A DNA stretch of 64,000 nucleotides from Minisyncoccota bacterium. Lineage in GTDB: Bacteria; Patescibacteriota; Minisyncoccia; Phycocordibacterales; UBA9973. Positions 3,283-61,605 of this stretch are shown piece by piece; within the stretch, counting starts at the first letter, position 1, and each line of letters begins with the position of its first letter. The stretch covers positions 17,973 through 81,972 of the forward strand of contig JBAZSZ010000001.1 of assembly GCA_041662205.1 (NCBI GenBank), read 5' to 3'. The translations under genes and the position numbers were made by a program. The notes below the pieces were generated by a model. That model saw only the letters and a program-made list of their open reading frames with translations, was not told the DNA's origin and searched no databases.

Positions 3283-3283
3283 A

Positions 3284-4345: not shown

Positions 4346-4351
4346 TAAGAT

Positions 4352-4394: not shown

Positions 4395-4404
4395 AATAAA
4401 ATAT

Positions 4405-5613: not shown

Positions 5614-5649
5614 AAGGCCTGCCCATGCAGACAGGTGTGGATAACCATC

Positions 5650-5681
5650 TTGCCTAGACATTTTTATCTGTATGATATAAT
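5650..5681 (+). promoter_or_regulatory. candidate sigma-70 promoter for the first pilin gene (extended -10 TGaTATAAT)
   Basis: TAGACA (5655-5660) or TTGCCT (5650-5655) followed by tgaTATAAT ending at 5681. The same ATATGATATAAT string recurs upstream of the second pilin gene at about 6287-6298. Confidence 0.4.
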
Positions 5682-5741
5682 AAGTGTATTAAAAATTAGT
5701 CGAAAAATTATAAGTTGTTTATTAATAATTAGAATTTAAAT

Positions 5742-6218
5742 ATGAAGAATTTCAAAAAAGGTTTTACATTGATTGAACTTTTGGTGGTCGTTGCTATTAT
5801 CGGTATTTTGGCGTCAGTTGTTTTGGCATCACTTAACACCGCACGTTCAAAAGGATCTGATGCAGCTATCAAGGCAAACTTGACTAATACTCGTGCTCAA
5901 GCAGCTATCTTTTATGATACGAATAATACATATTTAGCAGTTTGTACCACAGCAACTACTGGAATTGGTTCTGGTGTATCAGCAGCCTCAACTGCGGCTG
6001 GAACTGGTGCTGTTGTTAATGTTTTAGCTACTGCACAAATAGCTACAACCACTAACTGTCATGATACAGCAGCTGGTTATGCTGCTGCGACTCCATTAAA
6101 AAACAACAATAGTACTGCTCCTTTTACTGCTGCTGTTGATTACTTCTGTGTGGATTCAGCTGGTGCAGCGATAACAACAGAAACTCCGCTTGCAGCTAGT
6201 GCCGTTACTTGTTCATAG
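5742..6218 (+). CDS. type IV major pilin (prepilin with class III signal peptide)
   Basis: MKNFKKG|FTLIELLVVVAIIGILASVVL: G at -1, F at +1 and E at +5 form the classic prepilin peptidase site. The C-terminal region is A/T-rich with a Cys pair. Confidence 0.9.
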   Translation: MKNFKKGFTLIELLVVVAIIGILASVVLASLNTARSKGSDAAIKANLTNTRAQAAIFYDTNNTYLAVCTTATTGIGSGVSAASTAAGTGAVVNVLATAQIATTTNCHDTAAGYAAATPLKNNNSTAPFTAAVDYFCVDSAGAAITTETPLAASAVTCS

Positions 6219-6240
6219 TTTTGACTTAGTATAATTTTAC

Positions 6241-6280
6241 AAAAACCACTCCGACCTAGATCGGAGTGGTTTTTGTTTTT
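6241..6280 (+). terminator. rho-independent terminator between the two pilin genes
   Basis: AACCACTCCGA-cctaga-TCGGAGTGGTT followed by TTTTGTTTTT. Confidence 0.75.
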
Positions 6281-6333
6281 ATATATATGATATAATATAG
6301 ATAGGTTTTTTATTAAAATTAATTATATTAAAA

Positions 6334-6816
6334 ATGAACCCAAAAAAAGGTTTTACATTGATTGAACTTTTGGTGGTCGTTGCTATTGTCGGTATTTTAG
6401 CTGCGGTTGTTATGGTAGCGTTGACCAGTGCTAGAAATAAAGGTGGAGATGCAGGAGTGAAGTCAAATTTAAGAAATGCCATAACGCAAGGAGAAATTTT
6501 TTATAACATTAATACAGTTGTTCCTAGTAGTTATACAAATGTTTGTACCAATGGTCCTATTGGTAGTCCTGCAGTTAATGGTATTGGTGCACAAGTTTTA
6601 GCTGCGGCCAAAGCCAATGGTTATGCCAGTTACGCTACTAATGCAATTGGTACTACGACCACTGCAACTTGTAATAATAGCGCAAATGGTTGGGCAGCGG
6701 AAGTTCCGTTGAAATCTGCGGGCACAAATCAAATGTGGTGTGTAGACTGGACAGGGAAATCTTTGCAGACGAATGGCAGTACGCTTTCAACCAGTGCAGA
6801 TGTGGCTTGTAATTAA
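6334..6816 (+). CDS. type IV pilin, second paralogue
   Basis: MNPKKG|FTLIELLVVVAIVGILAAVVMVAL, a C-terminal Cys pair, and its own promoter-like ATATGATATAAT upstream. Confidence 0.9.
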   Translation: MNPKKGFTLIELLVVVAIVGILAAVVMVALTSARNKGGDAGVKSNLRNAITQGEIFYNINTVVPSSYTNVCTNGPIGSPAVNGIGAQVLAAAKANGYASYATNAIGTTTTATCNNSANGWAAEVPLKSAGTNQMWCVDWTGKSLQTNGSTLSTSADVACN

Positions 6817-6831
6817 TATTTATAAACAAAC

Positions 6832-7629
6832 ATGATTCCAATTCTTACAATTACTTTCTTTATACTTGGTATGATTGTCGGAAGCTTTTTAAATGTGGTT
6901 ATTCTTCGATTTAATACTCAAAAATCCTTTGGTGGCAGAAGTGGATGTATGCATTGTCAGAAAAAACTCTCTTGGTATGAGCTTATTCCTATTTTCAGTT
7001 TTTTAGCACTTTCGGGAAGATGTCGAAATTGTAAAACAAAAATATCTTTTCAATATCCTACTGTGGAGCTTATCACAGGTTTAGTTTTTGCTCTTTTGTT
7101 TTTAAAATTCCAAGATTTATTTTTTTCTTATATTTTTATTTTTAGTATTACTTATGCATACTATGTTACTGTATTTTCTATTCTTATAATCATTGCTGTT
7201 TATGATTTTAAGCACAAAATAATTCCAGATGTTCTTTCTTTTGCTTTTGGTATTTTAGCTTTTACGGGTTTATTCTTTTTTAGCACCAATGATTTTTCTG
7301 CTTTTTCTTTTCATTTTCCCACTCTTTTAGAATTTTTAGCAGGCCCAATAATTTCTCTACCTTTTGCTTTTTTTTGGTTGGTATCCTCTGGGAGATGGAT
7401 GGGGCTAGGGGACGCAAAACTTGCAATTGGTTTAGGATGGTTACTTGGTTTACCGTTGGCTCTTACTGGCGTAGTATTTTCTTTTTGGATTGGGTCTGTG
7501 GTAGGTATTGCTCTCGTTATTTTTTCTAAAAAGCTTGGGATGAAAAGTGAAATTCCTTTTGCCCCGTTTTTGGTTTTGGGTTCATTATTAGTGTTTCTTT
7601 TTGGATTAAATCTTTTCCCACTTCTTTAA
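6832..7629 (+). CDS. pilD: prepilin peptidase PilD (A24 family)
   Basis: N-terminal tetracysteine CMHCQ...CRNC typical of PilD, multiple TM helices, and the conserved LGLGDAKL region containing the active-site Asp. Confidence 0.85.
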   Translation: MIPILTITFFILGMIVGSFLNVVILRFNTQKSFGGRSGCMHCQKKLSWYELIPIFSFLALSGRCRNCKTKISFQYPTVELITGLVFALLFLKFQDLFFSYIFIFSITYAYYVTVFSILIIIAVYDFKHKIIPDVLSFAFGILAFTGLFFFSTNDFSAFSFHFPTLLEFLAGPIISLPFAFFWLVSSGRWMGLGDAKLAIGLGWLLGLPLALTGVVFSFWIGSVVGIALVIFSKKLGMKSEIPFAPFLVLGSLLVFLFGLNLFPLL

Positions 7630-8259
7630 ATGAATAAACAAATTCAAAAAAATAAAGCCTGCTTGCCATGTTCCAAATATAGTTTTTATAAGCGAGGGAT
7701 GTCTTATGTGGAGCTTATAGTAGTTTTGAGCATTTTTGCCACCTTGTCTTCTGTTGTAATCTTTAATCATGGGGACTTTCAAGATAGGGTGGATATTAAA
7801 AATTTAGCTAGCGATATTGCTTTGAAAATTATTGAGGCGCAAAAATCATCCGTAAATGGAGTGATGCCACCTTTAGGACATACACCAGATGATCCAGATA
7901 ATTGGAAACCAGCTTATGGAGTTTATTTTGATATTACAAGTAATGATAAACAATTTGTTTACTTTACCGATTTAGATAAAGACAACACTTACTCTTTTGG
8001 TGGTGAGTTGCTGGATACTATAGATATTACTAAAAACAATTTTATATCAAATATAGATACCTGTTCAGTCGATCCTTGTGCTTTAGGTAGTGAATCAACC
8101 AACCTTCTATCTATCACTTTTACCCGGCTAAATTCTGGTGCGTCTTTTGATGGTGCAACACTGACTGGTTCTGATTATATTCAAATTGCTATTTCTTCAC
8201 CCAAGGGAGCGACGGCTTTAGTAAAAGTATATCCTTCAGGAAGAGTGCGGGTGAATTAA
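7630..8259 (+). CDS. minor pilin / pseudopilin-like protein with a long leader
   Basis: A 23-aa leader, then KRG|MSYVELIVVLSIFATL (Glu at +5) and a beta-rich C-terminal domain. Confidence 0.7.
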   Translation: MNKQIQKNKACLPCSKYSFYKRGMSYVELIVVLSIFATLSSVVIFNHGDFQDRVDIKNLASDIALKIIEAQKSSVNGVMPPLGHTPDDPDNWKPAYGVYFDITSNDKQFVYFTDLDKDNTYSFGGELLDTIDITKNNFISNIDTCSVDPCALGSESTNLLSITFTRLNSGASFDGATLTGSDYIQIAISSPKGATALVKVYPSGRVRVN

Positions 8260-8273
8260 ATTAATTAAAAATT

Positions 8274-8897
8274 ATGAATTACAAATTACAAATAAAAAAA
8301 TCAAAAGATGCGGGCCGAAGGGTCCTGAGCGAAGCGAAGGGATACACCATCATAGAAACAATGATCTCTGTTTCTCTTTTTGTAATCATTGTCACCATAG
8401 CCATGGGATCTTTATTAAATGCTAATTTGCTTCATAAAAAATCACAAAAGATGCGCTCGATTATAGATAATTTAAGTTTCATAATGGAAGATATGTCTAG
8501 AAATTTGAGAACGGGGTACAATTATCATTGTATAGATGGTGGTGATCCTAGTCTTATTAATACTGATGTTCGTAGTTGTTCTGACATTAACGGGGGAGGT
8601 GGAATTTCTTTTAAATCTTCTCTTGGTGATCAATGGGTTTATTTTATTGGAACTTACGGTGGTAAGGATGGAATTTTTAGATCATTTGATGGAGGAAATA
8701 CTTTTATTCAATTAAATTCTGATGAAATTGAAATTGATTCTATATCTTCTTTTAAGGTAGAAGGTGCTGAGCTACCACCAGGAGACAGTCAACAACCTTT
8801 TGTTACTATTAAATTAGTTGGAAGAATAATTTCTGATGGAGTTTCTTCAACTTTCTCTTTACAAACTTCTGTCTCTCAAAGACGAATAGATATATAA
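8274..8897 (+). CDS. minor pilin / pseudopilin-like protein
   Basis: Leader then AKG|YTIIETMISVSLFVIIV (Glu at +5). Confidence 0.7.
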   Translation: MNYKLQIKKSKDAGRRVLSEAKGYTIIETMISVSLFVIIVTIAMGSLLNANLLHKKSQKMRSIIDNLSFIMEDMSRNLRTGYNYHCIDGGDPSLINTDVRSCSDINGGGGISFKSSLGDQWVYFIGTYGGKDGIFRSFDGGNTFIQLNSDEIEIDSISSFKVEGAELPPGDSQQPFVTIKLVGRIISDGVSSTFSLQTSVSQRRIDI

Positions 8898-9817: not shown

Positions 9818-11962
<2,145 letters not shown>

Positions 11963-12769
11963 TTAATCGTCTTTTTCTCTTTGTTGATTTTCCCTGTCTT
12001 GTTCACGATCGGAGTCGGATTCTCTATTCTCGTTTCTTAATTCATCTTTTATTTTATTCGCATTATTTCGAGCAGTGTCTGAAATATTAGTATTGTTCTC
12101 ATCTTTTTCTATATCGTGAATTTTTGTGTTATTTTTCTCACGAATATCATCTAATACTTGAGCGTGTGTGTTCATTTGATTTTGGAATTCGATAATTATA
12201 TTATCTTTTACTTTATTATCTGAGGACTCTTCTTCTTTGGGAATATCGTTCAAAGTTTTACTTAAAGTATTAGTATGATTTATCAGGAGGTCATTCAACT
12301 GTCTTTCTTTTTCATTATCAAGTTTATCTTGATTGGCTAGAGTTTCAGCTTCCACCATGCGTCCTATTGCTAAAGAACTCTCGTACCTTGCCTCTGATTC
12401 TTTGGAAAGCATCATGCGAGAATAAGTAGGTTCCACAACCTTAACTTTGAGCGGATAAAAAATATTTCCAGGCAAACTTTTTTGAGAAGCAATAACTACT
12501 CCACTGCCGAAAATAATCATCATGCAGGGAACAAATCCATAATGAATTAATCTATTTTTTTGTAAATTAAATATAAATGAATGAAAAGACCAAGGGTTTT
12601 TGATATGGGTGTTAGACAAGGTGGGGGAGTTTAAAATTTTTAAAAGCATGAAATTCTTTTCTCCAGTGGTCATTTTGATTTGTTTAATTTCTTTTACCCC
12701 GATATTTATTTTTTTATCTATTTTTTTGTTTTGCATATAATTTACATTATTTGTACTAATCATTATCAT
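11963..12769 (-). CDS. putative anti-sigma factor with a single TM helix and a charged coiled-coil C-terminal domain
   Basis: Its start overlaps the stop of the upstream ECF sigma gene by 14 nt, indicating translational coupling. One TM helix (GFVPCMMIIFGSGVVIA) and an acidic/basic repeat-rich tail. The assignment rests on context. Confidence 0.45.
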   Translation of the reverse strand: MIMISTNNVNYMQNKKIDKKINIGVKEIKQIKMTTGEKNFMLLKILNSPTLSNTHIKNPWSFHSFIFNLQKNRLIHYGFVPCMMIIFGSGVVIASQKSLPGNIFYPLKVKVVEPTYSRMMLSKESEARYESSLAIGRMVEAETLANQDKLDNEKERQLNDLLINHTNTLSKTLNDIPKEEESSDNKVKDNIIIEFQNQMNTHAQVLDDIREKNNTKIHDIEKDENNTNISDTARNNANKIKDELRNENRESDSDREQDRENQQREKDD

Positions 12770-13476: not shown

Positions 13477-14223
13477 ATGAAAAAAATAATAAAATCATTA
13501 GGTTTATTGGCAATTGTTTTCTCGGTATCAGTTTTAGGATTTGGTGCTAATTTTGCGCAGGCTGTTGATTATACGGCTGCGGATGTTGCATCACATAGCA
13601 CATCAGCAAGTTGCTGGGTGATCATTAACAACACTGTTTATGATTTAACCAACTTTATTCCATTGCACCCAGGAGGACCAGCAATAATAATATCAGTCTG
13701 TGGAAAGGATGGTACAACATTGTTTAATAGTGGGCCTCATCCAGATACTGCCATCAATGCTCTTAGTTCTTATATCATAGGTAACTTAGCAGCAGTTCCA
13801 GTTCTTACCACTATCAACGTTACTCCCGCTACTCCAGCAGTAGTTGTTGGTAATACCCAGCAAATGACTGCCACCACTTTAGATCAAAATGGTGCAGCTA
13901 TCTCTGCGACAGTTTCTTGGACAAGTTCTAACCCAGCGGTCGGAACGATTAATCCTACCACTGGATTGTTTACCGCTGTCGCTGCCGGAACCACTACTCT
14001 AACTGCTACCAGTGGTGCAGTCACAGGTTCAACCGTTGCTACAGTTACTGCGGCACCAGCTCCAATACCACCTTCAGTTCATCATGACGATGATGATGAC
14101 GAAAGTGAAATTGAAGACAGAGATGGGTCAAATAAGTCAGAGTCAGAGAAGGAAAAAAAGACAAATAACGGTAGATATGAAAAAAATAGTAACTACAAAA
14201 ATCGAGGGAGTCATAAAGACTAG
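13477..14223 (+). CDS. secreted protein with a cytochrome b5-like heme-binding domain, a Big_2 Ig-like domain and an acidic tail
   Basis: Signal peptide MKKIIKSLGLLAIVFSVSVLGFGANFAQA. Cytochrome-b5 signature LHPGGP with a second His 23 residues downstream (SGPH). Big_2-like TAT/ATT-rich beta domain. C-terminal HHDDDDDESEIEDRD. Confidence 0.7.
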   Translation: MKKIIKSLGLLAIVFSVSVLGFGANFAQAVDYTAADVASHSTSASCWVIINNTVYDLTNFIPLHPGGPAIIISVCGKDGTTLFNSGPHPDTAINALSSYIIGNLAAVPVLTTINVTPATPAVVVGNTQQMTATTLDQNGAAISATVSWTSSNPAVGTINPTTGLFTAVAAGTTTLTATSGAVTGSTVATVTAAPAPIPPSVHHDDDDDESEIEDRDGSNKSESEKEKKTNNGRYEKNSNYKNRGSHKD

Positions 14224-26675: not shown

Positions 26676-28813
<2,138 letters not shown>

Positions 28814-28947: not shown

Positions 28948-30213
28948 TTATTTTTTATTTTTAATTTCTTCTAAAAGTTTTGTCACCAATTCTTCTTTTG
29001 TTATTTGGCCTAGCTGACCAGCGTCGCGGGATTCGAGGGTTACTTTTCCAGCTTCTATTTCTTTATCACCAATGACGATCCAGTAGGGGATTTTATTATT
29101 CTTAGCATCTCGGACTTTTCCACCAAGATTTTTCTCTTCAACATCAAGCTCAGTGCGAATATTGTTTTCTTTTAATAATTCAAAAACTTGTTTTGCGTAT
29201 CCATTGTGATTTTCTCGTACAGGTATAACTTTTACTTGCACTGGTGAGAGCCAGAGAGGAAAGGCGCCTGAGTAGTGTTCGATTAAAACTGCGGCGCATC
29301 TTTCTATGGAGCCAGTAATAGCAGAATGAATCATCACGATGCGTTCTTTTTCTCCTTTTTCATTTACACAAGTTAGATCAAATCTCTCCGGCAAATTCAT
29401 ATCTAGCTGGATGGTTGCCACTTGCCATTCTTTTCCAGCTTTATTTTTTGCCATGAAGTCTAATTTGGGTCCATAAAGTGCAGCTTCCCCTAATCCTTCA
29501 AAATAATCTGCGCCTCGTTCCTCTGCAATACTACGAAGTTCGCTTTCTGCTGTATCCCAAATCTCCTTAGTACCAAGATATTTTTGAGGTTCTTTTGGAT
29601 CTCGAAATGATAAACGAACTTTTAAAGTGAATCCAAATGCTTTGTAAAATGTATCAATGATATCCCAAATTTTTAAAAATTCATCTTTAATTTGATTGGT
29701 GCGACAAAAGACATGTGAATCGTCTTGAGTAATGGAAAGCACACGAGTGAGTCCTCCTAGCTCGCCTGATTGTTCATCTCTATAAACCATGGTTGTTTCT
29801 GCGTACCTTTGTGGCATTTCTCTGTATGAGTGAGGCTTACGAGCAAAGATTTGAGTGTGGTGTGGGCAGTTCATTGGTTTGATTGCGTATTCTTTACCTT
29901 CTCTTGAAGTAAGTTTGAAAAGATCTTCTGCAAATTTTTCCCAATGTCCTGAAGTTTGATATAATTCTTTTTTTGTAATATGAGGGATAGTTACTCTACT
30001 ATAGTTGTGTTTTGAGCGAAGTTGCCAGACGAATTTATCTAGTTCTTCTCGGATAATTGTACCTTTTGGTGTCCAAAGTGGCAGACCTGGTCCAACAAGC
30101 TCAGAGAAGGTAAATAAATCAAGTTCCTTGCCTATAATTCTATGATCATTTTTATCCATTTCATTTTCTTTTTCCATAGTTTTCATCTTATCACATTTTA
30201 TTTTGCTTTTCAT
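28948..30213 (-). CDS. thrS: threonine--tRNA ligase, catalytic plus anticodon-binding domains only (no N-terminal TGS/editing domains)
   Basis: DHRIIGKELDLFTF start of the class II core, IQLDMNLPERFDLT, and a C-terminal anticodon-binding fold. 421 aa against about 640 for full-length bacterial ThrRS. Confidence 0.8.
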   Translation of the reverse strand: MKSKIKCDKMKTMEKENEMDKNDHRIIGKELDLFTFSELVGPGLPLWTPKGTIIREELDKFVWQLRSKHNYSRVTIPHITKKELYQTSGHWEKFAEDLFKLTSREGKEYAIKPMNCPHHTQIFARKPHSYREMPQRYAETTMVYRDEQSGELGGLTRVLSITQDDSHVFCRTNQIKDEFLKIWDIIDTFYKAFGFTLKVRLSFRDPKEPQKYLGTKEIWDTAESELRSIAEERGADYFEGLGEAALYGPKLDFMAKNKAGKEWQVATIQLDMNLPERFDLTCVNEKGEKERIVMIHSAITGSIERCAAVLIEHYSGAFPLWLSPVQVKVIPVRENHNGYAKQVFELLKENNIRTELDVEEKNLGGKVRDAKNNKIPYWIVIGDKEIEAGKVTLESRDAGQLGQITKEELVTKLLEEIKNKK

Positions 30214-30571: not shown

Positions 30572-31537
30572 ATGGCAAATAGGCACCTTTCCAGATCAAT
30601 AGTTCTCCAGACGCTTTTTGAGTGGGATTTCTTGTCTGCACAGGCGGATGTGTCCACTAATAAAAAAAAGGCTAATCTCACAGTTGAAGAAATAAAAGAA
30701 GTCTTAAAAAGAAATTTGAAAGAATTTGCTCCTGGTTTTGAAGATGATGTTTTTGTATTTTCACTTATTGACCAAATTTTAAAAAAGCGAGCAGTGATCG
30801 ATGAAATTATAGAAAAAGCTGCGCCAGACTGGCCACTTGATAAAATTTCTATTATTGATAGAAATATTTTGAGGATTGGTTTAGCAGAGCTTATTTTTGG
30901 TGACAGAAATGAAGTTCCTCCTAAAGTAGCTATCAATGAGGCAATAGAATTAGCGAAAACTTTTGGTGGAGAAAATTCCAGTAAATTTATTAATGGTGTG
31001 CTCGGCGCAGTTTATAAAGAGATAGGTGAGCCAGGCAAGGATCAAGTCAGTAAAAAAAAGAAAAATGAAGAAATTTTAGATATCACTAAATTGCCAATTG
31101 ATAAAAAAGGTGGAGCTATTGTTTATGCCAAGAAAGATAATAAAAAGAATGGTGAGACAATGTTTGCTTTAGTGCATGACGTTTTTGGATATTGGACTAT
31201 TTCCAAAGGAAGTGTCGAAGAAGGTGAAAATGAGGATGAAGCGACAGTCAGAGAGATAAAAGAAGAAATAGGACTTGATATAAAAATAGAAGAAAAATTA
31301 GGAGAGAATGAATATGTCGCTACGCACCCCCAGAATGGAAAAAGTTTAAAGAAAGTTGTTTATTTTTTGGCAAAGAGCGAGTACAAAGAACTCGTATTAG
31401 AAAAATCCGGGGGATTAGACGGGGCAAGATGGTTCGAGCTTTCTGAAATTCCAAAACTTCGTATTTATAACGATATAATACCTTTATTTAGTAAGGCGAT
31501 TGAGATTATTAGTAATAAAAAGAGCATCGCGCCTTAA
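30572..31537 (+). CDS. nusB: transcription antitermination factor NusB fused to a C-terminal NUDIX hydrolase domain
   Basis: N-terminal 150 aa NusB-like (LSRSIVLQTLFEWDF...AELIFGD). C-terminal domain with a perfect NUDIX box GSVEEGENEDEATVREIKEEIGL (GX5EX7REUXEEXGU). Confidence 0.8.
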   Translation: MANRHLSRSIVLQTLFEWDFLSAQADVSTNKKKANLTVEEIKEVLKRNLKEFAPGFEDDVFVFSLIDQILKKRAVIDEIIEKAAPDWPLDKISIIDRNILRIGLAELIFGDRNEVPPKVAINEAIELAKTFGGENSSKFINGVLGAVYKEIGEPGKDQVSKKKKNEEILDITKLPIDKKGGAIVYAKKDNKKNGETMFALVHDVFGYWTISKGSVEEGENEDEATVREIKEEIGLDIKIEEKLGENEYVATHPQNGKSLKKVVYFLAKSEYKELVLEKSGGLDGARWFELSEIPKLRIYNDIIPLFSKAIEIISNKKSIAP

Positions 31538-31571
31538 TGGACTTGCGCGACGTGATTTCGCTAAATCAATG
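31522..31571 (+). promoter_or_regulatory. copy A of the conserved start-codon-abutting module (upstream of rnc, overlapping the nusB 3' end)
   Basis: aTCGCGCcttaatGGACttGCGCGACgTGATTTcgctAAATCAATG. Coordinates are approximate to within 1-2 nt. Confidence 0.5.
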
Positions 31572-32264
31572 ATACAATTTTCAGATTTCGAAAAAAAAAT
31601 AAAAGTAATTTTTAAAGATAAGAATTTATTAAAACAGTCATTTACGCATCGTTCTTATATAAATGAAAATGGAGCGGCCAATATTTCTCACAACGAACGT
31701 TTAGAGTTTTTAGGAGATGCAGTACTTGAGCTTATCGTTACAGATTTTCTCTATAAAAAATATCCAAATTATCCAGAAGGAAAATTGACCGCCCTTCGTT
31801 CTGCTCTCGTGAATGCTATTATTATTTCTGAAATTGCTTTATCTATAGGAATGAATGATTATCTGCTTTTGTCCAAAGGTGAAGCAAAAGATTTTGGTAA
31901 AGCGAGGCAGTATATTTTAGCAAATACTTATGAGGCATTTATTGGGGCAATGTATTTAGATCAAGGATATGAGATCGTAAATAAATTTGTGACTGAAACT
32001 CTTTTAGGAAAGACTGAAGAAATAGTAAAGAAAAAACTTTGGCGTGATGCGAAAAGTTTAGTGCAAGAAAAAGCGCAAGAATTTGTATCAGTCACTCCCG
32101 CTTATAAAGTATTGCAACAATCAGGCCCAGATCATGATAAACACTTTACTATAGGTATTTATTTCGGAACAGATTTAATAGCTGAAGGAAAGGGACAAAG
32201 CAAACAAGAAGCCGAACAAAAGGCAGCCGAAAATGCACTAAAAGTAAAAAATTGGTTAGACTAA
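31569..32264 (+). CDS. rnc: ribonuclease III
   Basis: RNase III signature ERLEFLGDAVLELIV and a C-terminal dsRBD. The start is chosen at the internal ATG (MIQFSDFEKK...) that abuts the conserved module. The track ORF begins 69 nt earlier inside nusB. Confidence 0.85.
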   Translation: MIQFSDFEKKIKVIFKDKNLLKQSFTHRSYINENGAANISHNERLEFLGDAVLELIVTDFLYKKYPNYPEGKLTALRSALVNAIIISEIALSIGMNDYLLLSKGEAKDFGKARQYILANTYEAFIGAMYLDQGYEIVNKFVTETLLGKTEEIVKKKLWRDAKSLVQEKAQEFVSVTPAYKVLQQSGPDHDKHFTIGIYFGTDLIAEGKGQSKQEAEQKAAENALKVKNWLD

Positions 32265-32268
32265 AAAA

Positions 32269-34413
32269 ATGCGACTCAAGACACTTCAATTAAATGGTTT
32301 TAAATCCTTTGCGCAAAAGACTATTTTGGAGTTCAATACCCCGATTGTTTCTGTTGTGGGTCCAAATGGTTCTGGAAAATCAAATATTGTAGAGGCTATT
32401 CGTTTTGTTTTAGGCGAACAATCCATGAAATCAATGCGAGGGAAAGGAGGTTCGGATCTTGTTTTTAAGGGATCTAAAAAATTACCAAAGGGGTCACGGG
32501 CGTCCGTAACTATTTATTTCGATAATACTGATAAGGTTTTTAAACTCTTAAGTGATGGGAGAGAAGATGTAGATTTGAATTATGATGTTATCTCGATATC
32601 TCGTGAAGTTTTTTCGGATGGATTAAATAAATATATTTTAAATGGCACAGAAGTTCGCTTGAAAGATATTCATAATTTACTCGCTTCGGTCAATGTTGGT
32701 TCTTCTGGGCATCATATTATTTCTCAGGGTGAAGCTGATAGAATTTTGAATGCTAATGCGAGAGAAAAAAAGGAAATGGTAGAAGATGCGCTCGGATTAA
32801 AAATTTATCAATACAAAATAAAAGAAAGTGAGAGAAAATTAGAGCGAACAAATGAAAATATGAAAGAAGTTGTTCTCTTGCGAAGAGAAAATGCTCCACA
32901 CCTTAACTTTTTGAAGAAACAGGTGGAAAAATTTGAAAAGACCAAAGAAATGCAAATAGAATTGGCAACTCTGTATAGAGAATATTTAAAAAAAGAAAGT
33001 GTTTATTTAGAGCAAGAGAAAAATAAATTATCTCTTGAAAGAATTAGTATTTCAAGCGAGCTTGAAAGTGTAGCAAGTAAAATTTCTCAAAATGAAGATG
33101 GTAATGTTGTTCAAAATAGTCAGAAAATAGAAGAACTAAGAGTAGTGGAACAAAAGCTAAATTCTCTACGCTCTTCAAAGGGCGAGCTGGAACGTAAGCT
33201 TGGTCGTATCGAGGGAATTCTCGAATCAATAGAAAATAAGGCAAAAGTTTTTGGAATCTCTGGTAAATGCCCAATGTGTGGAAACGAAATCAAAGAAGTA
33301 TCCGAGGGGCAAAAAGAAAAAATACATAATGAAGAAAAAGAATTAACAGAATTAAAAAATTCACAGCTTAATGTTCTAGCGGAAATCCAAAAAATAACAT
33401 TAGAAGAAAAAGAAGGTATCAAATCAGCAGAAATATTAAAACAAGCGATAAATAAAGAGATGGAAGCATTACGTGATCTTGAGAGGGAAAAATTTACCTG
33501 GAAAGTTAGGCATCAAGAATTATCTTCTGCTTTGGAAATGGTCTCAATTAAAGAAACAAATTTGAGAAGCCGTAAAGAAAGTTTTGAGAATGAAATAAAA
33601 GAAGGTATTGCCTTGATTGGTAAAGAAGAATTGTCTTATGAGAATTTTAAAATTGAAGGCATCAATACAGGAACTACCCAAGAAGAACAAAAGAGAAAGA
33701 TTGAGCGTATAAAAATAAAATTAGAAGATGCCGGTCTTGGTAACGGGACAGAATTAATGAAAGAGTTTCATGAAGTGACAGAGCGAGATCAGTTTTTAAT
33801 GAAGGAAATGGAGGATTTAGAAAAAAGTATTGAGTCTTTGCAAAAACTTATTGTAGATTTAAAAGAAAAAATAGATATAGAGTTTAAAGAAGGAATTAAA
33901 AAAATAAATGTGGAATTTCAAGAATTTTTCTCTTTAATGTTCGGTGGTGGGCATGGGTCACTTTCAGTGATTGAAATAAAAAAGAGAAAAAATTATGAAT
34001 CTGAAAATGATGAAGACAGAGAAGAAGGAGAACTTGAAGAAGATGAAAGTGTCGTTGAAAAGGGAATTGAGATAAATGTTTCTTTGCCGAATAAAAAGGT
34101 AAAAGAAATCAATGCTTTCTCCGGTGGAGAAAGATCCCTCACTTCTATCGCTCTTCTTTTTGCTATGTCGCAAGTAAATCCACCACCATTTTTAGTATTA
34201 GATGAGACAGATGCAGCGCTCGATGAAGCGAATTCTCGCAAATATGGAGATATGTTGGAAAAACTTTCTAAACATTCTCAACTTATCGTCGTTACCCACA
34301 ATCGAGAGACAATGTCCCGAGCTGGAATACTCTATGGTATTACCATTGGCTCCGACGAAGCCTCCAAACTTCTCTCAGTAAAATTTGAAGAAGCAACCCA
34401 GATTGCAAAGTAA
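32269..34413 (+). CDS. SMC-family ATPase, miniaturised (714 aa) with a central CxxC zinc-hook-like motif instead of a hinge domain
   Basis: SMC N-terminus LNGFKSFAQKT...VVGPNGSGKSNIVEAIRFVLGEQS; long coiled coils; C-terminal signature FSGGERSLTSIALLFA and Walker B FLVLDETDAALD. The mid-point of the coiled coil carries GKCPMCGNE and there is no globular hinge. Confidence 0.75.
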   Translation: MRLKTLQLNGFKSFAQKTILEFNTPIVSVVGPNGSGKSNIVEAIRFVLGEQSMKSMRGKGGSDLVFKGSKKLPKGSRASVTIYFDNTDKVFKLLSDGREDVDLNYDVISISREVFSDGLNKYILNGTEVRLKDIHNLLASVNVGSSGHHIISQGEADRILNANAREKKEMVEDALGLKIYQYKIKESERKLERTNENMKEVVLLRRENAPHLNFLKKQVEKFEKTKEMQIELATLYREYLKKESVYLEQEKNKLSLERISISSELESVASKISQNEDGNVVQNSQKIEELRVVEQKLNSLRSSKGELERKLGRIEGILESIENKAKVFGISGKCPMCGNEIKEVSEGQKEKIHNEEKELTELKNSQLNVLAEIQKITLEEKEGIKSAEILKQAINKEMEALRDLEREKFTWKVRHQELSSALEMVSIKETNLRSRKESFENEIKEGIALIGKEELSYENFKIEGINTGTTQEEQKRKIERIKIKLEDAGLGNGTELMKEFHEVTERDQFLMKEMEDLEKSIESLQKLIVDLKEKIDIEFKEGIKKINVEFQEFFSLMFGGGHGSLSVIEIKKRKNYESENDEDREEGELEEDESVVEKGIEINVSLPNKKVKEINAFSGGERSLTSIALLFAMSQVNPPPFLVLDETDAALDEANSRKYGDMLEKLSKHSQLIVVTHNRETMSRAGILYGITIGSDEASKLLSVKFEEATQIAK

Positions 34414-34417
34414 TCCT

Positions 34418-34990
34418 ATGAAATTAATTCTTGGTTCATCTTCAAAATATAGAAAAAATATTCTTGAGAAAGCCGGATATGTTTTTGATGTTTTGGTTCC
34501 TGATATTGATGAAAAATTAATTCAAGTTGATGATCCATATCAAAGACCTCTGGTGGTTGCTAGGGCTAAAGCTGAAGTTTTAATTTCTCAAATAAAAGAA
34601 CCAGCTTTGCTTGTTACATCAGATGTTATCGCTGTTTGTAATGGAAAAGTGCGTGAAAAACCAGAGTCTAAAGAAGAGGCTAGAGAATTTTTGATGGAAT
34701 ACAGCAAGGGAATAGGGCCTGAAGGTGTAACTGCTATTGTGATTTATAACACAGTTACCAAAGAATATTTTGAAGGAATCGATAAAGCTCAAGTTTTTTT
34801 TAGTGAATTTCCTGAATCAGTGATTGAAGATTTTATAAAAAATGGTGATGCTCTCGGTCGGGCTGGTGGTTTTGGTGTTCAATCCCCAATACTCCGACCT
34901 TATGTGAAAAAAATTGAAGGAGATGAAGAATCCATCGTCGGTTTACCAGTTTTATTGTTAAAAAAATTACTCAAACAAGCTGGGTATTGA
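34418..34990 (+). CDS. maf: Maf-family nucleoside triphosphate pyrophosphatase
   Basis: MKLILGSSSKYRKNILEKAG start typical of Maf, with conserved Asp/Glu and Lys positions. The start is chosen at the internal Met after the SMC stop. Confidence 0.75.
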   Translation: MKLILGSSSKYRKNILEKAGYVFDVLVPDIDEKLIQVDDPYQRPLVVARAKAEVLISQIKEPALLVTSDVIAVCNGKVREKPESKEEAREFLMEYSKGIGPEGVTAIVIYNTVTKEYFEGIDKAQVFFSEFPESVIEDFIKNGDALGRAGGFGVQSPILRPYVKKIEGDEESIVGLPVLLLKKLLKQAGY

Positions 34991-35006: not shown

Positions 35007-36923
35007 CTATAGCGTAGATATATTTTTAACTTCTTTAAATTTTATATTTTCTTCTTTACCCGCTGTTACTTTTTCTATTTGAAAGACAGAATTTTGCTGG
35101 GTTATGTTTTTCTTTGCAGTCATTGAGCCATCTTTAAATAATTTTAATTCTAAAAGCATACCCTGCATAGTTTTTTTATCTCGAGGTTGATCAAAAATAA
35201 AATTACCAAGCGAGTAGGCAATATAGCCATTGTTATAAACCTCTGTGTCCTGTGTGACGTGTGAATGCGAACCAATAACAATTTTTGCACCATTATCGAT
35301 TGCCTTATGTGCTAAAAATTCTTGTCTGGCATTGTGTTTATTTTTATATTCTTCGCCGAAATGAAAAGTGACAACTAAATAATCTACTTGTTTAGCTGCA
35401 TTTTTAATTATTTCATCAAAATTTGGATCGTTTGCTAGGAGTACTCCTGCTTTTTCAATACCGACAGACATATTATTTGGTCCCACATCAGAGAATCCAA
35501 GATAGCCAATTTTCATTCCATATTTTTCGATAATGGCTGGTGTTTCGGCTTCTGTTTTATTGTTTCCTCCACCAGTATAAAGTATTTCGTTTTCTTTCAA
35601 GCGGGCAAGTGTATCAATAAAGGCATTACGTCCCCAATCAGCGACGTGATTGTTTGCCAAGGATAAAACATTCACACCCACGCCCCTCAAGGTTGGAATA
35701 ACTACAGGATTCATTCTGAAGGAATATAAATTCTTTTGATCAATACCTTTATCCGAAGCAGTCCCTTCTAGATTGGCAAAGAAAATATCTGTGTTTTTTA
35801 ATAACTCAAGTAGATTATTTGATTTTTCAAAAAGTTGAGAATAATCATTATTGAAATTTTTTACAACTGAATTTCTTACTCCACGATCGAGCATTATATC
35901 ACCAGCAAAAGATAAGGTAACAAAATTTTGATCTCTGATGTCCGGCGTGCCAACTTTTTCTTGTACCCAATTTGTATTTGCGTCAGCCACACCACCGTAA
36001 TATATGTTTTTTTTCAAATATTTTAAAAGAGTTTCAACATCACCGCGACGATCATTGCTTTGAAGTAAAGTAATAGCGATAGGTCGAGAACCGGCCTGAC
36101 CTAAAGGCAAATTAAAAAGAGAGATGACTGTTTGTCTAGCTTCGTCTGTGTAACCACTTTTCCCCCCAATGTACCCATTTTTTTTTAGAAACTGACTAAT
36201 GTTTGACCAACTATGAGTCTTTGTGGAATAGCTGTTTTTAGTAGTTATTTTTAATAAATCCTTCTGTCGCTGTGCTATGTATCCGGCCAATTTAAACATA
36301 TCAGATACAGTTGATTGATTGTTCGGAGTTAGGCCACTTGGATCTTCATAGAAAGTGGAGTTCATCTGCAGAGCCGATGCTTCCTGATTCATTTTCAAGA
36401 TAAAACTATTTCTACCGAAATATAAAGCAAGTGCTTCTGCTGCATCGTTGCTCGATTCTAAAAGAAGGGGATACATTAGATCAGAAATTTTTATTTTTTC
36501 TCCTAATCTTAATTCTCCATTCTGGCCAGAAGTCGAGAGAGCATTTTTAGTTATTTTAGTTGTTTCGTTTGATTTTACTAATTTGCTGGTGACGAGAGCG
36601 GTCATTAGTTTGGAGGTAGAGGCAATAGGGAACTTCTGATCTTGGTTTTTTGAAAGAATTACTTCTCCAGTATTTAAATCGCCAACTAAATAAGCTTTAG
36701 CAGATACTTTCGGCCCACCTTTTGTATCGTTGTTAATATAATAATATTGGAGTTTTGCTGATTCGGGAGCAATGAGTTGAACCACTAGTGCTTCGTTGTT
36801 ATTTGTTTGGAATATTTTAAAATAGTTACTATCAAAAAAAAATGAGGTAACAAAAATACCGAGGATTACTGGTGGCATCGTCCAAAATATTAATTTAATT
36901 TTTGTTTTTAAAACAGAATTCAT
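35007..36923 (-). CDS. fusion of D-alanyl-D-alanine carboxypeptidase (PBP5/S11) with a CapA-family metallophosphoesterase domain
   Basis: N-terminal TM; SxxK PIASTSKLMTA, SxN LESSNDAAE and KSG GGKSGYT of serine DD-peptidases. The C-terminal half has the CapA/PGA_cap motifs GDIMLDRG, LANNH and VIGSHSHV. Confidence 0.75.
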   Translation of the reverse strand: MNSVLKTKIKLIFWTMPPVILGIFVTSFFFDSNYFKIFQTNNNEALVVQLIAPESAKLQYYYINNDTKGGPKVSAKAYLVGDLNTGEVILSKNQDQKFPIASTSKLMTALVTSKLVKSNETTKITKNALSTSGQNGELRLGEKIKISDLMYPLLLESSNDAAEALALYFGRNSFILKMNQEASALQMNSTFYEDPSGLTPNNQSTVSDMFKLAGYIAQRQKDLLKITTKNSYSTKTHSWSNISQFLKKNGYIGGKSGYTDEARQTVISLFNLPLGQAGSRPIAITLLQSNDRRGDVETLLKYLKKNIYYGGVADANTNWVQEKVGTPDIRDQNFVTLSFAGDIMLDRGVRNSVVKNFNNDYSQLFEKSNNLLELLKNTDIFFANLEGTASDKGIDQKNLYSFRMNPVVIPTLRGVGVNVLSLANNHVADWGRNAFIDTLARLKENEILYTGGGNNKTEAETPAIIEKYGMKIGYLGFSDVGPNNMSVGIEKAGVLLANDPNFDEIIKNAAKQVDYLVVTFHFGEEYKNKHNARQEFLAHKAIDNGAKIVIGSHSHVTQDTEVYNNGYIAYSLGNFIFDQPRDKKTMQGMLLELKLFKDGSMTAKKNITQQNSVFQIEKVTAGKEENIKFKEVKNISTL

Positions 36924-60523: not shown

Positions 60524-60576
60524 GTCGCCACGCCTTAATTGACTTACGCGGGATGATTTAGCTGAATCAATTTATG
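60524..60576 (+). promoter_or_regulatory. copy C of the conserved start-codon-abutting module (upstream of the dockerin protein gene)
   Basis: gtcgccaCGCCttaattGACttaCGCGggaTGATTTagctgAATCAatttATG. Confidence 0.5.
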
Positions 60577-61605
60577 TTGAATAATCCAGTTAGGGGAAAG
60601 TTGTTTATTTTAGGAATTTTTATTTCTATAATTTTTTTCGCGTCTCATATTTTAGCTTCAGAAAATGATGGAACAATTTCTTCTAGTTCTCAATATGCTT
60701 TTGGGGAGAATTTAGGTTGGATTAATTTTAGTTGCGATAATTGCAATGTTCATATTACAGATACTGGATTGAGTGGATATGCTTGGAGTTCTCAATATGG
60801 ATGGATAAATTTATCTCCGAGTGGAGGCGGAGTAACAAATAACTGTGCAGGTGAATTGGGTGGCAAAGCTTGGTCAAAATCATTAGGCTGGGTAGATTTT
60901 TCTGGGGCAGTAATTAATGCCGCTGGAAAATTTATCGGAATGGCAGGTACTCCTGGGACCAAAGCAGGGAGAATTAATTTTAGTTGTGATAATTGTGATG
61001 TTTCTACCGATTGGCTTCAATGCGCTCTACGGGAATCCCCAGCTCAGGTATTAATAAATTCAATTACTGATAATATTATTGCTTCAATTTCTGCAAATAT
61101 AAATATAACCAATGAAGGATCTGTCGATACTGAATATCAATATGAATGGTGTGTGGTTTCTGACATAGATAATTCTTGTGGCGGTGGGGATGATGTTTTT
61201 TATTCTTCTGCGGCCAAACTTCTCACAGTTGGACAAAGTTGGACGACAGACAAAATTGCCACAGTGCCAAGCATCGGAACTTATTATTTTAAAATTGTTG
61301 TTTATTATGGAATAAATTATTCTGTTGCCTCGCAAGTATTTACTGCTGTCTCTGACGGTGGACCTGGAGGTGGTAGCGGAGGGGGTGGAGAAACAATAAT
61401 ATTTTCAACAAATAACACTCATTACGATACAGCTGATTTTAACATTGATCATGTAGTAGATTCAGTTGATTTTTCTATTTTGTTATTTTTTTGGAAAAAG
61501 GAATCTCCATTTAGCAATATTTATGTAGATATTAATAAAGATGGAAACGTCAATTCAGTTGATTTTTCTATTATGCTTTCAGAGTGGGGCAAAAGAAGCG
61601 TATGA
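60574..61605 (+). CDS. secreted repeat protein with a C-terminal dockerin-like double Ca-binding module
   Basis: Signal/TM FILGIFISIIFFASHILA; four GWINFSCDNC/YGWINLS-type repeats; a Gly-rich linker; two dockerin-like segments ADFNIDHVVDSVDFSILLFFW and DINKDGNVNSVDFSIMLSEW. Confidence 0.7.
   Translation: MLNNPVRGKLFILGIFISIIFFASHILASENDGTISSSSQYAFGENLGWINFSCDNCNVHITDTGLSGYAWSSQYGWINLSPSGGGVTNNCAGELGGKAWSKSLGWVDFSGAVINAAGKFIGMAGTPGTKAGRINFSCDNCDVSTDWLQCALRESPAQVLINSITDNIIASISANINITNEGSVDTEYQYEWCVVSDIDNSCGGGDDVFYSSAAKLLTVGQSWTTDKIATVPSIGTYYFKIVVYYGINYSVASQVFTAVSDGGPGGGSGGGGETIIFSTNNTHYDTADFNIDHVVDSVDFSILLFFWKKESPFSNIYVDINKDGNVNSVDFSIMLSEWGKRSV

What the first reader, a model, noticed from the sequence alone, without database searches (positions are those of the whole stretch)
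32269..34413. Mini-SMC with a CxxC zinc-hook-like motif at the coiled-coil apex instead of a hinge domain
The head domains are unmistakably SMC (GFKSF...GPNGSGKSN...FVLGE at the N-terminus; signature FSGGERSLTSIALLFA and Walker B at the C-terminus). The protein is only 714 aa, however, and exactly mid-way along the coiled coil it carries GKCPMCGNE, the motif type that Rad50/SbcC use to dimerise through a shared zinc ion. Canonical SMC dimerises through a globular hinge of about 150 aa. This looks like an SMC head with a Rad50-like apex. No scpA or scpB lies adjacent, since maf follows.
Basis: partly seen in the sequence, partly recalled or inferred. Interest (0 to 1): 0.55.

Follow-up and report, generated by a model that had tools for sequence, protein, structure and literature searches.

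The report
Hinge-less mini-SMC with zinc hook
A tiny uncultured bacterium (Paceibacteria, candidate phyla radiation) encodes, at the usual smc position, a half-length chromosome-organising SMC protein. Its hinge domain is missing, and the tip of its arm carries the same two-cysteine zinc-hook motif that the DNA-repair proteins Rad50 and SbcC use to pair up.

Summary
ORF 32269-34413 (+) encodes a 714-aa protein with complete SMC ATPase head halves. The best family match is bacterial Smc TIGR02168 at 481 bits; the best solved relative is the B. subtilis Smc head at E 2e-73. No hinge domain is detected. Its only two cysteines form CPMCG (C334, C337), and AlphaFold places them in the turn between the two long antiparallel arm helices.

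The motif is invariant in 78 aligned relatives and present in 115 of the 120 closest. It matches the P. furiosus Rad50 hook ([13 protein letters not shown]) and the E. coli SbcC hook (CPLCGS).

The gene follows rnc in a conserved housekeeping block, so it is the smc orthologue, not Rad50/SbcC, RecN or a defence ATPase.

It belongs to a large Patescibacteria mini-SMC family of about 650-800 aa. Most members carry a cysteine-free two-helix cap at the apex instead. Hook and cap alternate among proteins more than 80% identical, at the same locus.

Zinc binding, dimerisation and the ScpA/ScpB partners are untested. An engineered B. subtilis Smc carrying a Rad50 hook works, but I found no report of a natural one. 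Verdict: new variant of a known kind.

The parts
32269..34413 (+). Mini-SMC gene (714 aa plus stop), the smc orthologue of a Paceibacteria/Nomurabacteria-type CPR bacterium
   Evidence: ORF. Pfam SMC_N 6.7e-54 spanning residues 3-697. TIGR02168 481.5 bits. B. subtilis Smc head 2.4e-73. 100% identical database entry from a Candidatus Paceibacterota MAG.
32269..32778 (+). N-terminal half of the ATPase head (about res 1-170), with Walker A GPNGSGKSN at res 31-39 (nt 32359-32385)
   Evidence: Aligns to B. subtilis Smc residues 2-197. Walker A residues are invariant in 78 relatives. Column entropy is 0.06-0.56 bits.
32800..33255 (+). Ascending arm helices (res 178-276 and 280-329). The head-proximal neck, up to about res 220, is highly conserved and the mid-arm is variable.
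   Evidence: AF2 secondary structure with arm pLDDT mostly 80-92. Conservation profile.
33256..33306 (+). Apex loop (res 330-346) ISGKCPMCGNEIKEVSE with the CxxC zinc-hook-like motif. C334 to C337 is nt 33268-33279.
   Evidence: Translation. Loop between the two arm helices in the AF2 model. C/P/C/G invariant. Motif statistics. Match to the P. furiosus Rad50 hook 1L8D at E 0.0089. E. coli SbcC hook CPLCGS and hhalign probability 70%.
33307..33942 (+). Descending arm (res 347-558): helices 347-450, 471-488 and 493-558, with a break at 451-470 and a short one at 489-492. I read the breaks as possibly joint-like.
   Evidence: AF2 model. The best Foldseek hit is an Smc head with coiled coil and joint, 5xei.
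33943..34410 (+). C-terminal half of the ATPase head (res 559-714). Signature FSGGER is res 617-622 (nt 34117-34134). Walker B FLVLDE is res 641-646 (nt 34189-34206), followed by D-loop AALD.
   Evidence: Aligns to the B. subtilis Smc C-terminal head. Residues invariant. Entropy 0.01-0.28 bits.
33982..34056 (+). Variable acidic insertion in the C-terminal head (res 572-596), absent from B. subtilis Smc
   Evidence: Gap in the alignment to the B. subtilis Smc head. Highest entropy, 1.4-2.0 bits. pLDDT below 50.
31500..32264 (+). rnc (RNase III) immediately upstream, the conserved rnc-smc arrangement
   Evidence: Pfam Ribonucleas_3_3 1.9e-35 and dsrm 1.2e-14. Same neighbour in related loci L001-L004.
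34385..34990 (+). maf downstream. It is a frequent neighbour but not a constant one, and there is no evidence it is a partner.
   Evidence: Pfam Maf 3.3e-40. Present in L001 and L004, absent in L002/L003.

Best explanation
This is the organism's housekeeping Smc (prokaryotic condensin ATPase) in a miniaturised, hinge-less form.

Each chain folds back on itself. The N- and C-terminal halves form one SMC ABC-ATPase head. An antiparallel coiled-coil arm of roughly 165-190 residues per strand, about 25 nm and half the B. subtilis length, ends in a short loop carrying C334-P-M-C337-G.

Two chains are proposed to be joined permanently at their tips by one zinc ion, bound tetrahedrally by the four cysteines, two from each chain. 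This is how Rad50/SbcC hooks work. It would give the V- or rod-shaped homodimer that the hinge provides in canonical Smc.

ATP-driven engagement and release of the heads, probably bridged by a kleisin, would then organise and segregate the small chromosome as Smc-ScpAB does.

Shown here: SMC identity of the heads, absence of a hinge, apex position and strict conservation of the CxxC, orthology by synteny, and exchangeability of the apex module.

Inferred: zinc binding, hook-mediated dimerisation, the kleisin partners and the cellular function.
For: 1. Smc identity. TIGR02168 SMC_prok_B scores 5.4e-144 (481.5 bits). Rad50 models score 55-71 bits, RecN 41 and ASRP 44. PDB sequence hits to B. subtilis, Geobacillus, Thermotoga and Pyrococcus Smc heads are 1e-73 to 1e-51; the best Rad50 head is 1.6e-11. 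Foldseek's top matches are the Smc head with joint (5xei) at 7.7e-16, then condensin and cohesin. All ATPase motifs are invariant.

2. Orthology. The gene sits in the block pheST-gyrB-thrS-nusB/nudix-rnc-[smc]-maf-PBP-rnr-rpsP-KH-trmD-rpoBC in the window and in related genomes. The B. subtilis arrangement is rncS-smc-ftsY, as the strain and plasmid list of PMC5344682 shows.

3. No hinge. No PF06470 match at E<=10. Only 17 residues separate the two arm helices.

4. The hook. It uses the only two cysteines in the protein. They are invariant in 78/78 aligned relatives and present in 115/120 close relatives. The same position holds a CxxC in seven cluster representatives only 44-51% identical to this protein, one from Ca. 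Vogelbacteria. The nearby histidine (H354) varies among the apex segments, so one chain supplies only two obvious ligands.

5. Similarity to real hooks. The consensus GKCP[LVT]CGxE[IL] mirrors P. furiosus Rad50 [13 protein letters not shown]. A profile of the apex finds 1L8D at E 0.0089 over 45 residues that include the preceding helix. E. coli SbcC has CPLCGS at its midpoint, with hhalign probability 70%. Orthologue P0007 gives a sub-threshold PF04423 hit.

6. Functional plausibility. A B. subtilis Smc whose hinge was replaced by the P. furiosus Rad50 hook supports normal growth. Natural Smc arm lengths include a minor mode at 163 aa (PMC5344682). Conversely, Rad50 works with a MukB hinge (PMC6969161).

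7. Conservation pattern. The neck (res 161-220) and the apex-proximal segment (301-340) are much more conserved than the mid-arm, as expected for partner-binding and dimerisation surfaces.
Against: There is no direct evidence for zinc binding or dimerisation.

The Pfam Rad50_zn_hook model does not reach its threshold. CPxCG is also the generic zinc-knuckle motif, so the similarity may be convergent; the top PDB profile hits were C2H2 fingers.

The AF2 loop has pLDDT below 50, and the heads were modelled poorly from a shallow alignment.

Close orthologues do without the cysteines altogether, so the hook is not indispensable to the family.

No ScpA or ScpB was found in the window or within 10 kb of the gene in about 40 related loci. 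The rest of the genome could not be read.

The protein fails the TIGR02168 equivalog cut-off (481 < 567 bits).
Confidence: 0.7

Rival explanations
1. The CxxC is not an inter-chain zinc hook. It might form a redox-sensitive disulfide, a metal or iron-sulfur site completed by a partner protein, or simply a tight turn. Dimerisation would then be provided by the coiled-coil tips themselves, as in the cysteine-free relatives.
For: Orthologues more than 80% identical in heads and arms lack cysteines entirely and carry a two-helix cap instead, so the family can presumably dimerise without zinc. The Rad50_zn_hook model is below threshold. Generic zinc-knuckle proteins score as well as Rad50 against the apex profile.
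Against: The two cysteines, the proline and the glycine are invariant where the short apex is present. The hook-type apex is too short for another dimerisation module: median 84 residues between anchor motifs, against 123.5 in cap-type proteins. The flanking pattern G-[KR]-C-P-x-C-G-x-E-[IL] matches P. furiosus Rad50 beyond the knuckle. Two cysteines per chain with no conserved third or fourth ligand is the Rad50 arrangement.
Confidence: 0.17
2. The protein is a Rad50/SbcC-type double-strand-break repair ATPase that works with an Mre11/SbcD nuclease and has merely been scored as SMC.
For: CxxC at the coiled-coil apex and no hinge, the Rad50/SbcC architecture. Weak hits to Rad50 NCBIfam models and SbcC_Walker_B.
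Against: Rad50 models score 55-71 bits against cut-offs of 700-1087, while SMC_prok_B scores 481 bits. Smc heads match at 1e-73 against 1e-11 for Rad50 heads. No nuclease gene is adjacent in the window or in L001-L004, whereas in E. coli sbcD and sbcC overlap. The gene occupies the rnc-smc position, and its orthologues at that position include hook-free forms.
Confidence: 0.04
3. It is the SMC-like ATPase of a mobile defence system (Lamassu LmuB, MADS mad3, Gabija/PARIS-like) or a RecN-like repair protein, not a chromosome organiser.
For: PADLOC hits: mad3 2.9e-59 (199.5 bits) and LmuB 7.9e-24. RecN models hit at 1e-10. Short arms and no hinge are typical of these families (my own knowledge).
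Against: All these scores are far below the Smc score. The neighbours are housekeeping genes in a block conserved across many species, with no nuclease, methylase or effector genes nearby. The G+C content of the gene region is unremarkable. RecN scores 41 bits against a cut-off of 408.
Confidence: 0.04

Closest known systems
Bacterial Smc of the Smc-ScpAB condensin (e.g. B. subtilis Smc, TIGR02168)
   Same: Head sequence and all ATPase motifs, the antiparallel coiled-coil arm with a conserved neck, and the genomic position after rnc.
   Different: It is 714 aa, against 1186 aa for B. subtilis Smc (construct numbering in PMC5344682). The arms are about half as long. No hinge domain is present; the apex is a 17-residue CxxC loop. 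It falls below the equivalog cut-off. ScpA/ScpB were not located.
Engineered B. subtilis Smc(Zh) chimera and Mini-Smc constructs (Burmann et al. 2017, PMC5344682)
   Same: Smc heads and arms joined to a Rad50-type zinc hook in place of the hinge, and shortened arms. The chimera supports normal growth, and arm length is functional only in discrete regimes, with a natural minor mode at 163 aa.
   Different: That protein is man-made, using the P. furiosus hook. Here the arrangement is natural, conserved across many species, and combined with short arms. Their survey of natural sequences required a hinge alignment, so by my reading it would have missed this form.
Rad50/SbcC zinc hook (P. furiosus Rad50 1L8D/6ZFF; E. 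coli SbcC)
   Same: A CxxC at the tip of an antiparallel coiled coil with two cysteines per chain. The local sequence is GKCP[VL]CGxE[LI].
   Different: The heads are Smc-type, not Rad50-type. There is no Mre11/SbcD neighbour. PF04423 is below threshold. Homology of the hook versus convergence is unresolved.
Archaea-specific SMC-related proteins (ASRP: ClsN/coalescin, Sph1/2; PMC9389158)
   Same: SMC-superfamily proteins of about 600 aa, without a hinge, with a zinc-hook motif in the middle of the coiled coil. The ASRP model aligns from residue 332, at the hook, to the C-terminal head.
   Different: ASRPs are archaeal and form a separate family. The score is 44 bits against a cut-off of 300. 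The present protein is bacterial and an Smc orthologue by sequence and synteny.
Hinge-less SMC variants of marine Actinobacteria (Sussfeld et al. 2025, PMC12153180)
   Same: Natural SMC-clade proteins that lack the hinge domain.
   Different: The authors state that the CXXC zinc-hook motif is absent from those sequences. They come from a different phylum and may be paralogues.
Cysteine-free mini-SMC of other Patescibacteria (e.g. P0118, P0121)
   Same: Same family, same locus, 74-78% overall identity for the closest ones, same arm architecture.
   Different: The apex is a two-helix cap of about 50 residues (helices 336-355 and 363-374 in P0118) with no cysteines. This is the majority form: 143 of the 150 best cluster representatives lack a mid-chain CxxC.

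Membership tests
Bacterial Smc (Smc-ScpAB condensin, TIGR02168) | SMC-type ABC ATPase head split between the N and C termini, with Walker A, signature motif, Walker B and D-loop | tested here: met
   All motifs are present and invariant. SMC_N 6.7e-54. B. subtilis Smc head 2.4e-73.
Bacterial Smc (Smc-ScpAB condensin, TIGR02168) | Whole-protein score at or above the curated equivalog cut-off (567.35 bits) | tested here: not met
   481.5 bits in two stretches. The listed N-terminal stretch covers model positions 1-317 of 1181, and the middle of the model is not matched, consistent with the missing hinge and shorter arms.
Bacterial Smc (Smc-ScpAB condensin, TIGR02168) | Long intramolecular antiparallel coiled-coil arm | tested here: met
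   AF2 helices 178-329 and 347-558, with arm pLDDT mostly 80-92. The length is about half that of B. subtilis Smc, whose arm is 344 aa.
Bacterial Smc (Smc-ScpAB condensin, TIGR02168) | Globular hinge dimerisation domain (PF06470, about 150 aa) | tested here: not met
   No hit at E<=10 for the whole protein, the isolated apex or two orthologues. Only a 17-residue loop lies between the arm helices.
Bacterial Smc (Smc-ScpAB condensin, TIGR02168) | Kleisin ScpA and partner ScpB encoded in the genome | not testable with these tools
   None in the 64-kb window. None within 10 kb of the gene in about 40 related loci, using ScpA/ScpB seeds validated against Pfam.
Bacterial Smc (Smc-ScpAB condensin, TIGR02168) | Conserved chromosomal position immediately downstream of rnc | tested here: met
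   rnc ends 4 nt before the start codon. Same arrangement in L001-L004. B. subtilis rncS-smc-ftsY per PMC5344682.
Rad50/SbcC | CxxC motif at the apex of the coiled coil, two cysteines per chain | tested here: met
   C334/C337 are the only cysteines, lie in the apex loop and are invariant.
Rad50/SbcC | Match to the Rad50_zn_hook profile (PF04423) above the gathering score | tested here: not met
   No hit for the window protein or its isolated apex. Orthologue P0007 scores 14.2 bits against a cut-off of 24.3. The apex profile against 1L8D gives E 0.0089 and hhalign against the SbcC hook gives 70%; both are suggestive only.
Rad50/SbcC | Rad50/SbcC-type head sequence | tested here: not met
   Rad50 equivalog models score 55-71 bits against cut-offs of 700-1087. 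SbcC_Walker_B scores 15.6 bits against 27.
Rad50/SbcC | Adjacent Mre11/SbcD nuclease gene | tested here: not met
   The neighbours are rnc and maf. None in L001-L004. E. coli sbcD-sbcC adjacency is shown for comparison.
Rad50/SbcC | One zinc ion bound by four cysteines from two chains; zinc-dependent dimer | not testable with these tools
   Needs biochemistry or a multimer-plus-ion prediction. Only single-chain AF2 was available.
Archaea-specific SMC-related proteins (ASRP/ClsN) | Match to NF045487 above its cut-off (300 bits) and archaeal distribution | tested here: not met
   44.1 bits. All close relatives are Patescibacteria.
RecN | Match to TIGR00634 or NF008121 above their cut-offs (about 408-418 bits) | tested here: not met
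   41.2 and 39 bits.
Defence-system SMC-like ATPases (Lamassu LmuB, MADS mad3) | Best family match to the defence ATPase, and linkage to the system's other genes | tested here: not met
   mad3 199.5 bits and LmuB 82.8 bits, both below SMC_prok_B at 481.5 bits. The neighbourhood is housekeeping and conserved.

The most novel reading that the evidence does not exclude
A whole branch of the candidate phyla radiation runs its chromosome with a single, hinge-less, half-length Smc. Its apex is a freely exchangeable dimerisation cassette, either a Rad50-type zinc hook or a small two-helix cap, swapped between close relatives by recombination.

If so, nature has already done the experiment showing that the hinge fold, its DNA-binding surface and any hinge gate are dispensable for Smc function. 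It would also show that about 25-nm arms suffice. The complex might even work with a non-canonical kleisin, or with none, since ScpA/ScpB were not found here.
Probability: 0.4. Interest if true: 0.75.

Novelty: new variant of a known kind. Interest (0 to 1): 0.6.

Why it matters
How SMC motors use their hinge is still debated: DNA binding, a DNA entry gate, or only a dimerisation point. The laboratory result that a Rad50 zinc hook can replace the B. subtilis hinge (PMC5344682) suggested that only dimerisation matters.

A natural lineage in which the sole recognisable Smc has a zinc hook, or in sister species a minimal helical cap, on half-length arms would support that conclusion independently, from evolution. 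It would define a minimal natural SMC of about 700 aa, attractive for structural and single-molecule work. It would also give a compact system for testing arm-length and apex requirements for loop extrusion.

There is a practical point for annotation. NCBI's pipeline names these proteins only 'AAA family ATPase'; they fall below the Smc model cut-off.

Tried and rejected
**ScpA/ScpB search.**
- I scanned 47 window ORFs against Pfam or NCBIfam.
- I searched all reading frames of 90 codons or more in the window and 45 fetched loci with phmmer.
- Nothing was found. The only marginal hit (E 0.058) was in a Nanoarchaeota locus.
- The rest of the genome cannot be read. The exact window protein is not indexed for contig look-up.

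**Pfam Rad50_zn_hook on the isolated apex.** No hit for the window protein and a sub-threshold hit for one orthologue.

**Independent origins of the hook.** An NJ tree gave at least 9 parsimony changes. Pairwise identities show the deep representatives are nearly equidistant at about 50%. Only the polymorphism inside the Nomurabacteria-type clade is solid; the number of deep origins is unresolved.

**AlphaFold2.** Both full-length models had poor head confidence because only close relatives could be used in the alignment. I used them only for arm and apex topology.

**Rad50/SbcC, RecN, ASRP, Lamassu and MADS identities.** Considered and rejected on scores and context.

**Literature.** Searches for a natural Smc with a zinc hook or for CPR Smc found nothing relevant. 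The nearest report is hinge-less SMC without CxxC in marine Actinobacteria. The one 'segregation and condensation protein' plus Patescibacteria paper refers, by my reading of its locus tags, to host genes.
Full report
**1. The observation**

The ORF at 32269..34413 (+) starts with ATG and encodes 714 aa. The quoted motifs are all there: NGFKSF, Walker A GPNGSGKSN (res 31-39), RFVLGEQS, signature FSGGER (617-622), and Walker B FLVLDE (641-646) followed by AALD.

GKCPMCGNE is residues 332-340. The translation of 33256-33306 reads ISGKCPMCGNEIKEVSE. C334 and C337 are the only cysteines in the protein.

Pfam gives SMC_N (6.7e-54) spanning residues 3-697. It gives no SMC_hinge hit even at E<=10, for the whole protein, for the isolated apex or for two orthologues.

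An AlphaFold2 model built from 78 close relatives has low confidence in the heads, because the alignment is shallow. It gives pLDDT mostly 80-92 for the arm. Helices 178-276 and 280-329 run out, a loop at 330-346 carries the CxxC, and helices 347-450, 471-488 and 493-558 run back. The motif therefore sits exactly at the turn of the coiled coil.

**2. What the protein is**

The heads are bacterial Smc.
- NCBIfam TIGR02168 (SMC_prok_B) scores 5.4e-144, or 481.5 bits. That is below its 567-bit cut-off; the middle of the model is unmatched. Rad50 models reach 55-71 bits, RecN 41 and ASRP 44.
- Against PDB sequences the best matches are Smc heads of B. subtilis (2.4e-73), Geobacillus, Thermotoga and Pyrococcus. 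Rad50 heads start at 1.6e-11.
- Foldseek ranks an Smc head with coiled coil and joint (5xei, 7.7e-16) first, then condensin and cohesin. Rad50 is eighth.
- PADLOC defence models score far lower: mad3 199.5 bits, LmuB 82.8 bits.

The gene lies 4 nt after rnc (RNase III) and before maf. The surrounding housekeeping block is pheST-gyrB-thrS-nusB/nudix-rnc-smc-maf-PBP-rnr-rpsP-KH-trmD-rpoBC. The same block recurs in related genomes. rnc-smc is also the arrangement in B. subtilis, as the rncS-smc-ftsY constructs in PMC5344682 show. This is the smc orthologue.

**3. Organism and family**

An identical protein comes from a Candidatus Paceibacterota MAG. The 120 closest database proteins (73-100% identity, 706-747 aa) come from Paceibacterota, Nomurabacteria and Parcubacteria. 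GTDB species representatives give the same picture.

A search of 1.84 billion cluster representatives returned, as its best 150, only proteins of 524-797 aa; the full-length ones are 643-797 aa. Patescibacteria therefore hold a large mini-SMC family. DPANN archaea picked up by the same scan have full-length SMC of 1135-1165 aa.

**4. Conservation of the hook**

- 115 of the 120 closest relatives have CxxC at the same place, usually as their only cysteines.
- In a 78-sequence alignment C334, P335, C337 and G338 are invariant.
- Over 122 hook-type sequences the pattern is [IVL](-4) S G [RK] C P [LTVM] C G [SNK] E [ILM].
- The nearby histidine (H354) varies among the apex segments. Each chain therefore offers only two obvious ligands, which is the Rad50 situation.

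**5. Resemblance to real hooks**

A profile of the apex (73 columns, 39 sequences) searched against all PDB sequences finds the P. furiosus Rad50 hook. 1L8D scores E 0.0089 and 6ZFF scores 0.016, over 45 residues that include the helix before the hook. The consensus GELERKLGRIEGLLEAKENKVKISGKCPLCGSEIKE aligns to [34 protein letters not shown]. The other hits cover only the zinc knuckle.

E. coli SbcC carries AGQPCPLCGSTSH at residue 506 of 1048. hhalign aligns it to the apex profile with 70% probability.

Orthologue P0007 (CPVCGKEMGE) gives a sub-threshold PF04423 hit of 14.2 bits against a cut-off of 24.3.

The similarity is real at the motif level. It cannot separate common descent from convergence on a zinc knuckle.

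**6. An unexpected context: the apex is a swappable module**

Five of the 120 close relatives (746-747 aa) have no cysteine at all. Their heads and arms align at 74-78% overall identity. Between the conserved anchors KLGRIEG and NKEMEAL the hook segment is replaced by a longer helical segment.

AlphaFold2 of one of them (P0118) shows two short helices (336-355, 363-374) capping the arm. This is again not a hinge fold.

This cap form occupies the same locus as the hook form and is the majority:
- 143 of the 150 best representatives lack a mid-chain CxxC. Their median length is 746 aa, against 702 aa for hook forms.
- The median distance between the anchor motifs is 123.5 residues in cap forms and 84 in hook forms.
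- Among GTDB species 67-89% identical to the window protein, 21 have the hook and 5 the cap. The roughly 40%-identity group all lack a mid-chain CxxC.

Apex type does not follow the backbone. Cap-type P0110 is 87% identical to hook-type P0013 in heads and arms, but only 82% identical to other cap types.

Seven representatives only 44-51% identical to this protein also have a CxxC at the corresponding apex position (CxxC[GAKN]Q). One is from Ca. Vogelbacteria.

An NJ tree suggests a cap-type root and at least 9 changes. The deep branches are nearly equidistant, so the number of independent origins is unresolved.

**7. How it most likely works**

Shown:
- an intact SMC ATPase head;
- a folded-back arm of about 163 residues (ascending) and about 188 residues (descending). 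This is my estimate from the alignment to the B. subtilis head construct and the model. It corresponds to roughly 25 nm;
- a conserved two-cysteine loop at the tip;
- strong conservation of the neck (res 161-220) and of the apex-proximal segment compared with the mid-arm.

Inferred: two chains share one zinc ion through four cysteines, forming a constitutive tip-to-tip dimer as in Rad50/SbcC. The heads engage and disengage with ATP. A kleisin bridges them, and the complex organises the small chromosome like Smc-ScpAB.

This is plausible on published grounds.
- A B. subtilis Smc with the P. furiosus Rad50 hook instead of its hinge supports normal growth and normal arm alignment.
- Shortened arms work in discrete length regimes, and natural Smc arms show a minor mode at 163 aa (PMC5344682).
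- The reverse swap, Rad50 with a MukB hinge, also works (PMC6969161).

**8. What is missing**

No ScpA or ScpB was found in the window. None was found within 10 kb of the gene in about 40 related loci, using validated seeds. These genes are usually not linked to smc (my own knowledge), and the rest of the genome could not be read. Zinc binding and dimerisation are untested.

**9. Comparison with what is known**

The closest systems are:
- canonical Smc-ScpAB: same heads and locus, but with a hinge and arms twice as long;
- the engineered Smc(Zh) and Mini-Smc constructs: the same design, but man-made;
- Rad50/SbcC: the same hook, but different heads and a nuclease partner;
- archaeal ASRP/ClsN proteins: SMC-related proteins with a zinc hook, but a separate archaeal family (PMC9389158);
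- hinge-less SMCs of marine Actinobacteria, which the authors state lack the CXXC motif (PMC12153180).

Nine full-text searches found no description of a natural Smc with a zinc hook, or of the Patescibacteria mini-SMC family. The held library is incomplete, so this is absence of evidence only.

**10. Verdict**

The finding is a new natural variant of a known kind of machine. Interest is moderate to high for SMC biology. It offers an evolutionary counterpart to the hinge-swap experiments and a minimal natural SMC with interchangeable apex modules.

Noticed in passing
Related proteins P0100, P0110, P0114, P0117, P0118; loci L004/L013 (gene at 10001-12241), L019, L020, L022, L023: Orthologues at the same rnc-smc locus replace the CxxC loop with a cysteine-free two-helix cap of about 50 residues. 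This cap is the majority apex in the Patescibacteria mini-SMC family. How it dimerises is unknown.
   Followed up: partly
window 33982-34056 (res 572-596 of the mini-SMC): A variable, highly acidic insertion lies in the C-terminal head half. It is absent from B. subtilis Smc, is the most variable part of the protein, and is modelled as disordered.
   Followed up: partly
window 30572-31537 (+): A NusB domain is fused to a NUDIX hydrolase domain in one 321-aa protein. The same fusion is present in related loci L001, L002 and L004.
   Followed up: partly
window 28948-30213 (-); compare L001 6076-7821 and L004 6139-7929: The class II aminoacyl-tRNA synthetase here (likely ThrRS) is 421 aa and has only the catalytic core and the anticodon-binding domain. 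Relatives have 581-596 aa versions with the tRNA_SAD (editing-type) domain. L002 has the short form too.
   Followed up: no
L001 852-4229: GyrB of a close relative (GCA_028718635.1) is 1125 aa and contains an intein (PF14890). The window's GyrB (26723-28813) is 696 aa, with no intein-sized insertion.
   Followed up: no
window 35007-36923 (-): A D-Ala-D-Ala carboxypeptidase (Peptidase_S11) is fused to a PGA_cap (CapA-like) domain in one 638-aa protein. The fusion is conserved next to the smc block in all related loci examined.
   Followed up: no
window 60574-62213 (+): Adjacent genes encode a Dockerin_1-domain protein (343 aa) and a Cohesin-domain protein (209 aa). This cellulosome-type interaction pair seems unexpected in an ultrasmall CPR bacterium. 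Both hits are modest (E 4e-7 and 1.4e-5).
   Followed up: no
window 152-8897 (+): A type IV pilus / competence-pilus-like cluster. It holds a PilO-like protein, two T2SSE ATPases, a response regulator, two N-methyl pilins, a prepilin peptidase and two minor-pilin-like proteins with no Pfam match.
   Followed up: no
window 13477-14223 (+): A cytochrome b5-like heme/steroid-binding domain is fused to a bacterial Ig-like (Big_2) domain.
   Followed up: no
window 9818-11962 (+): A second ORF of exactly 714 aa in the window is NAD-dependent DNA ligase LigA. The equal length to the mini-SMC is coincidental.
   Followed up: yes
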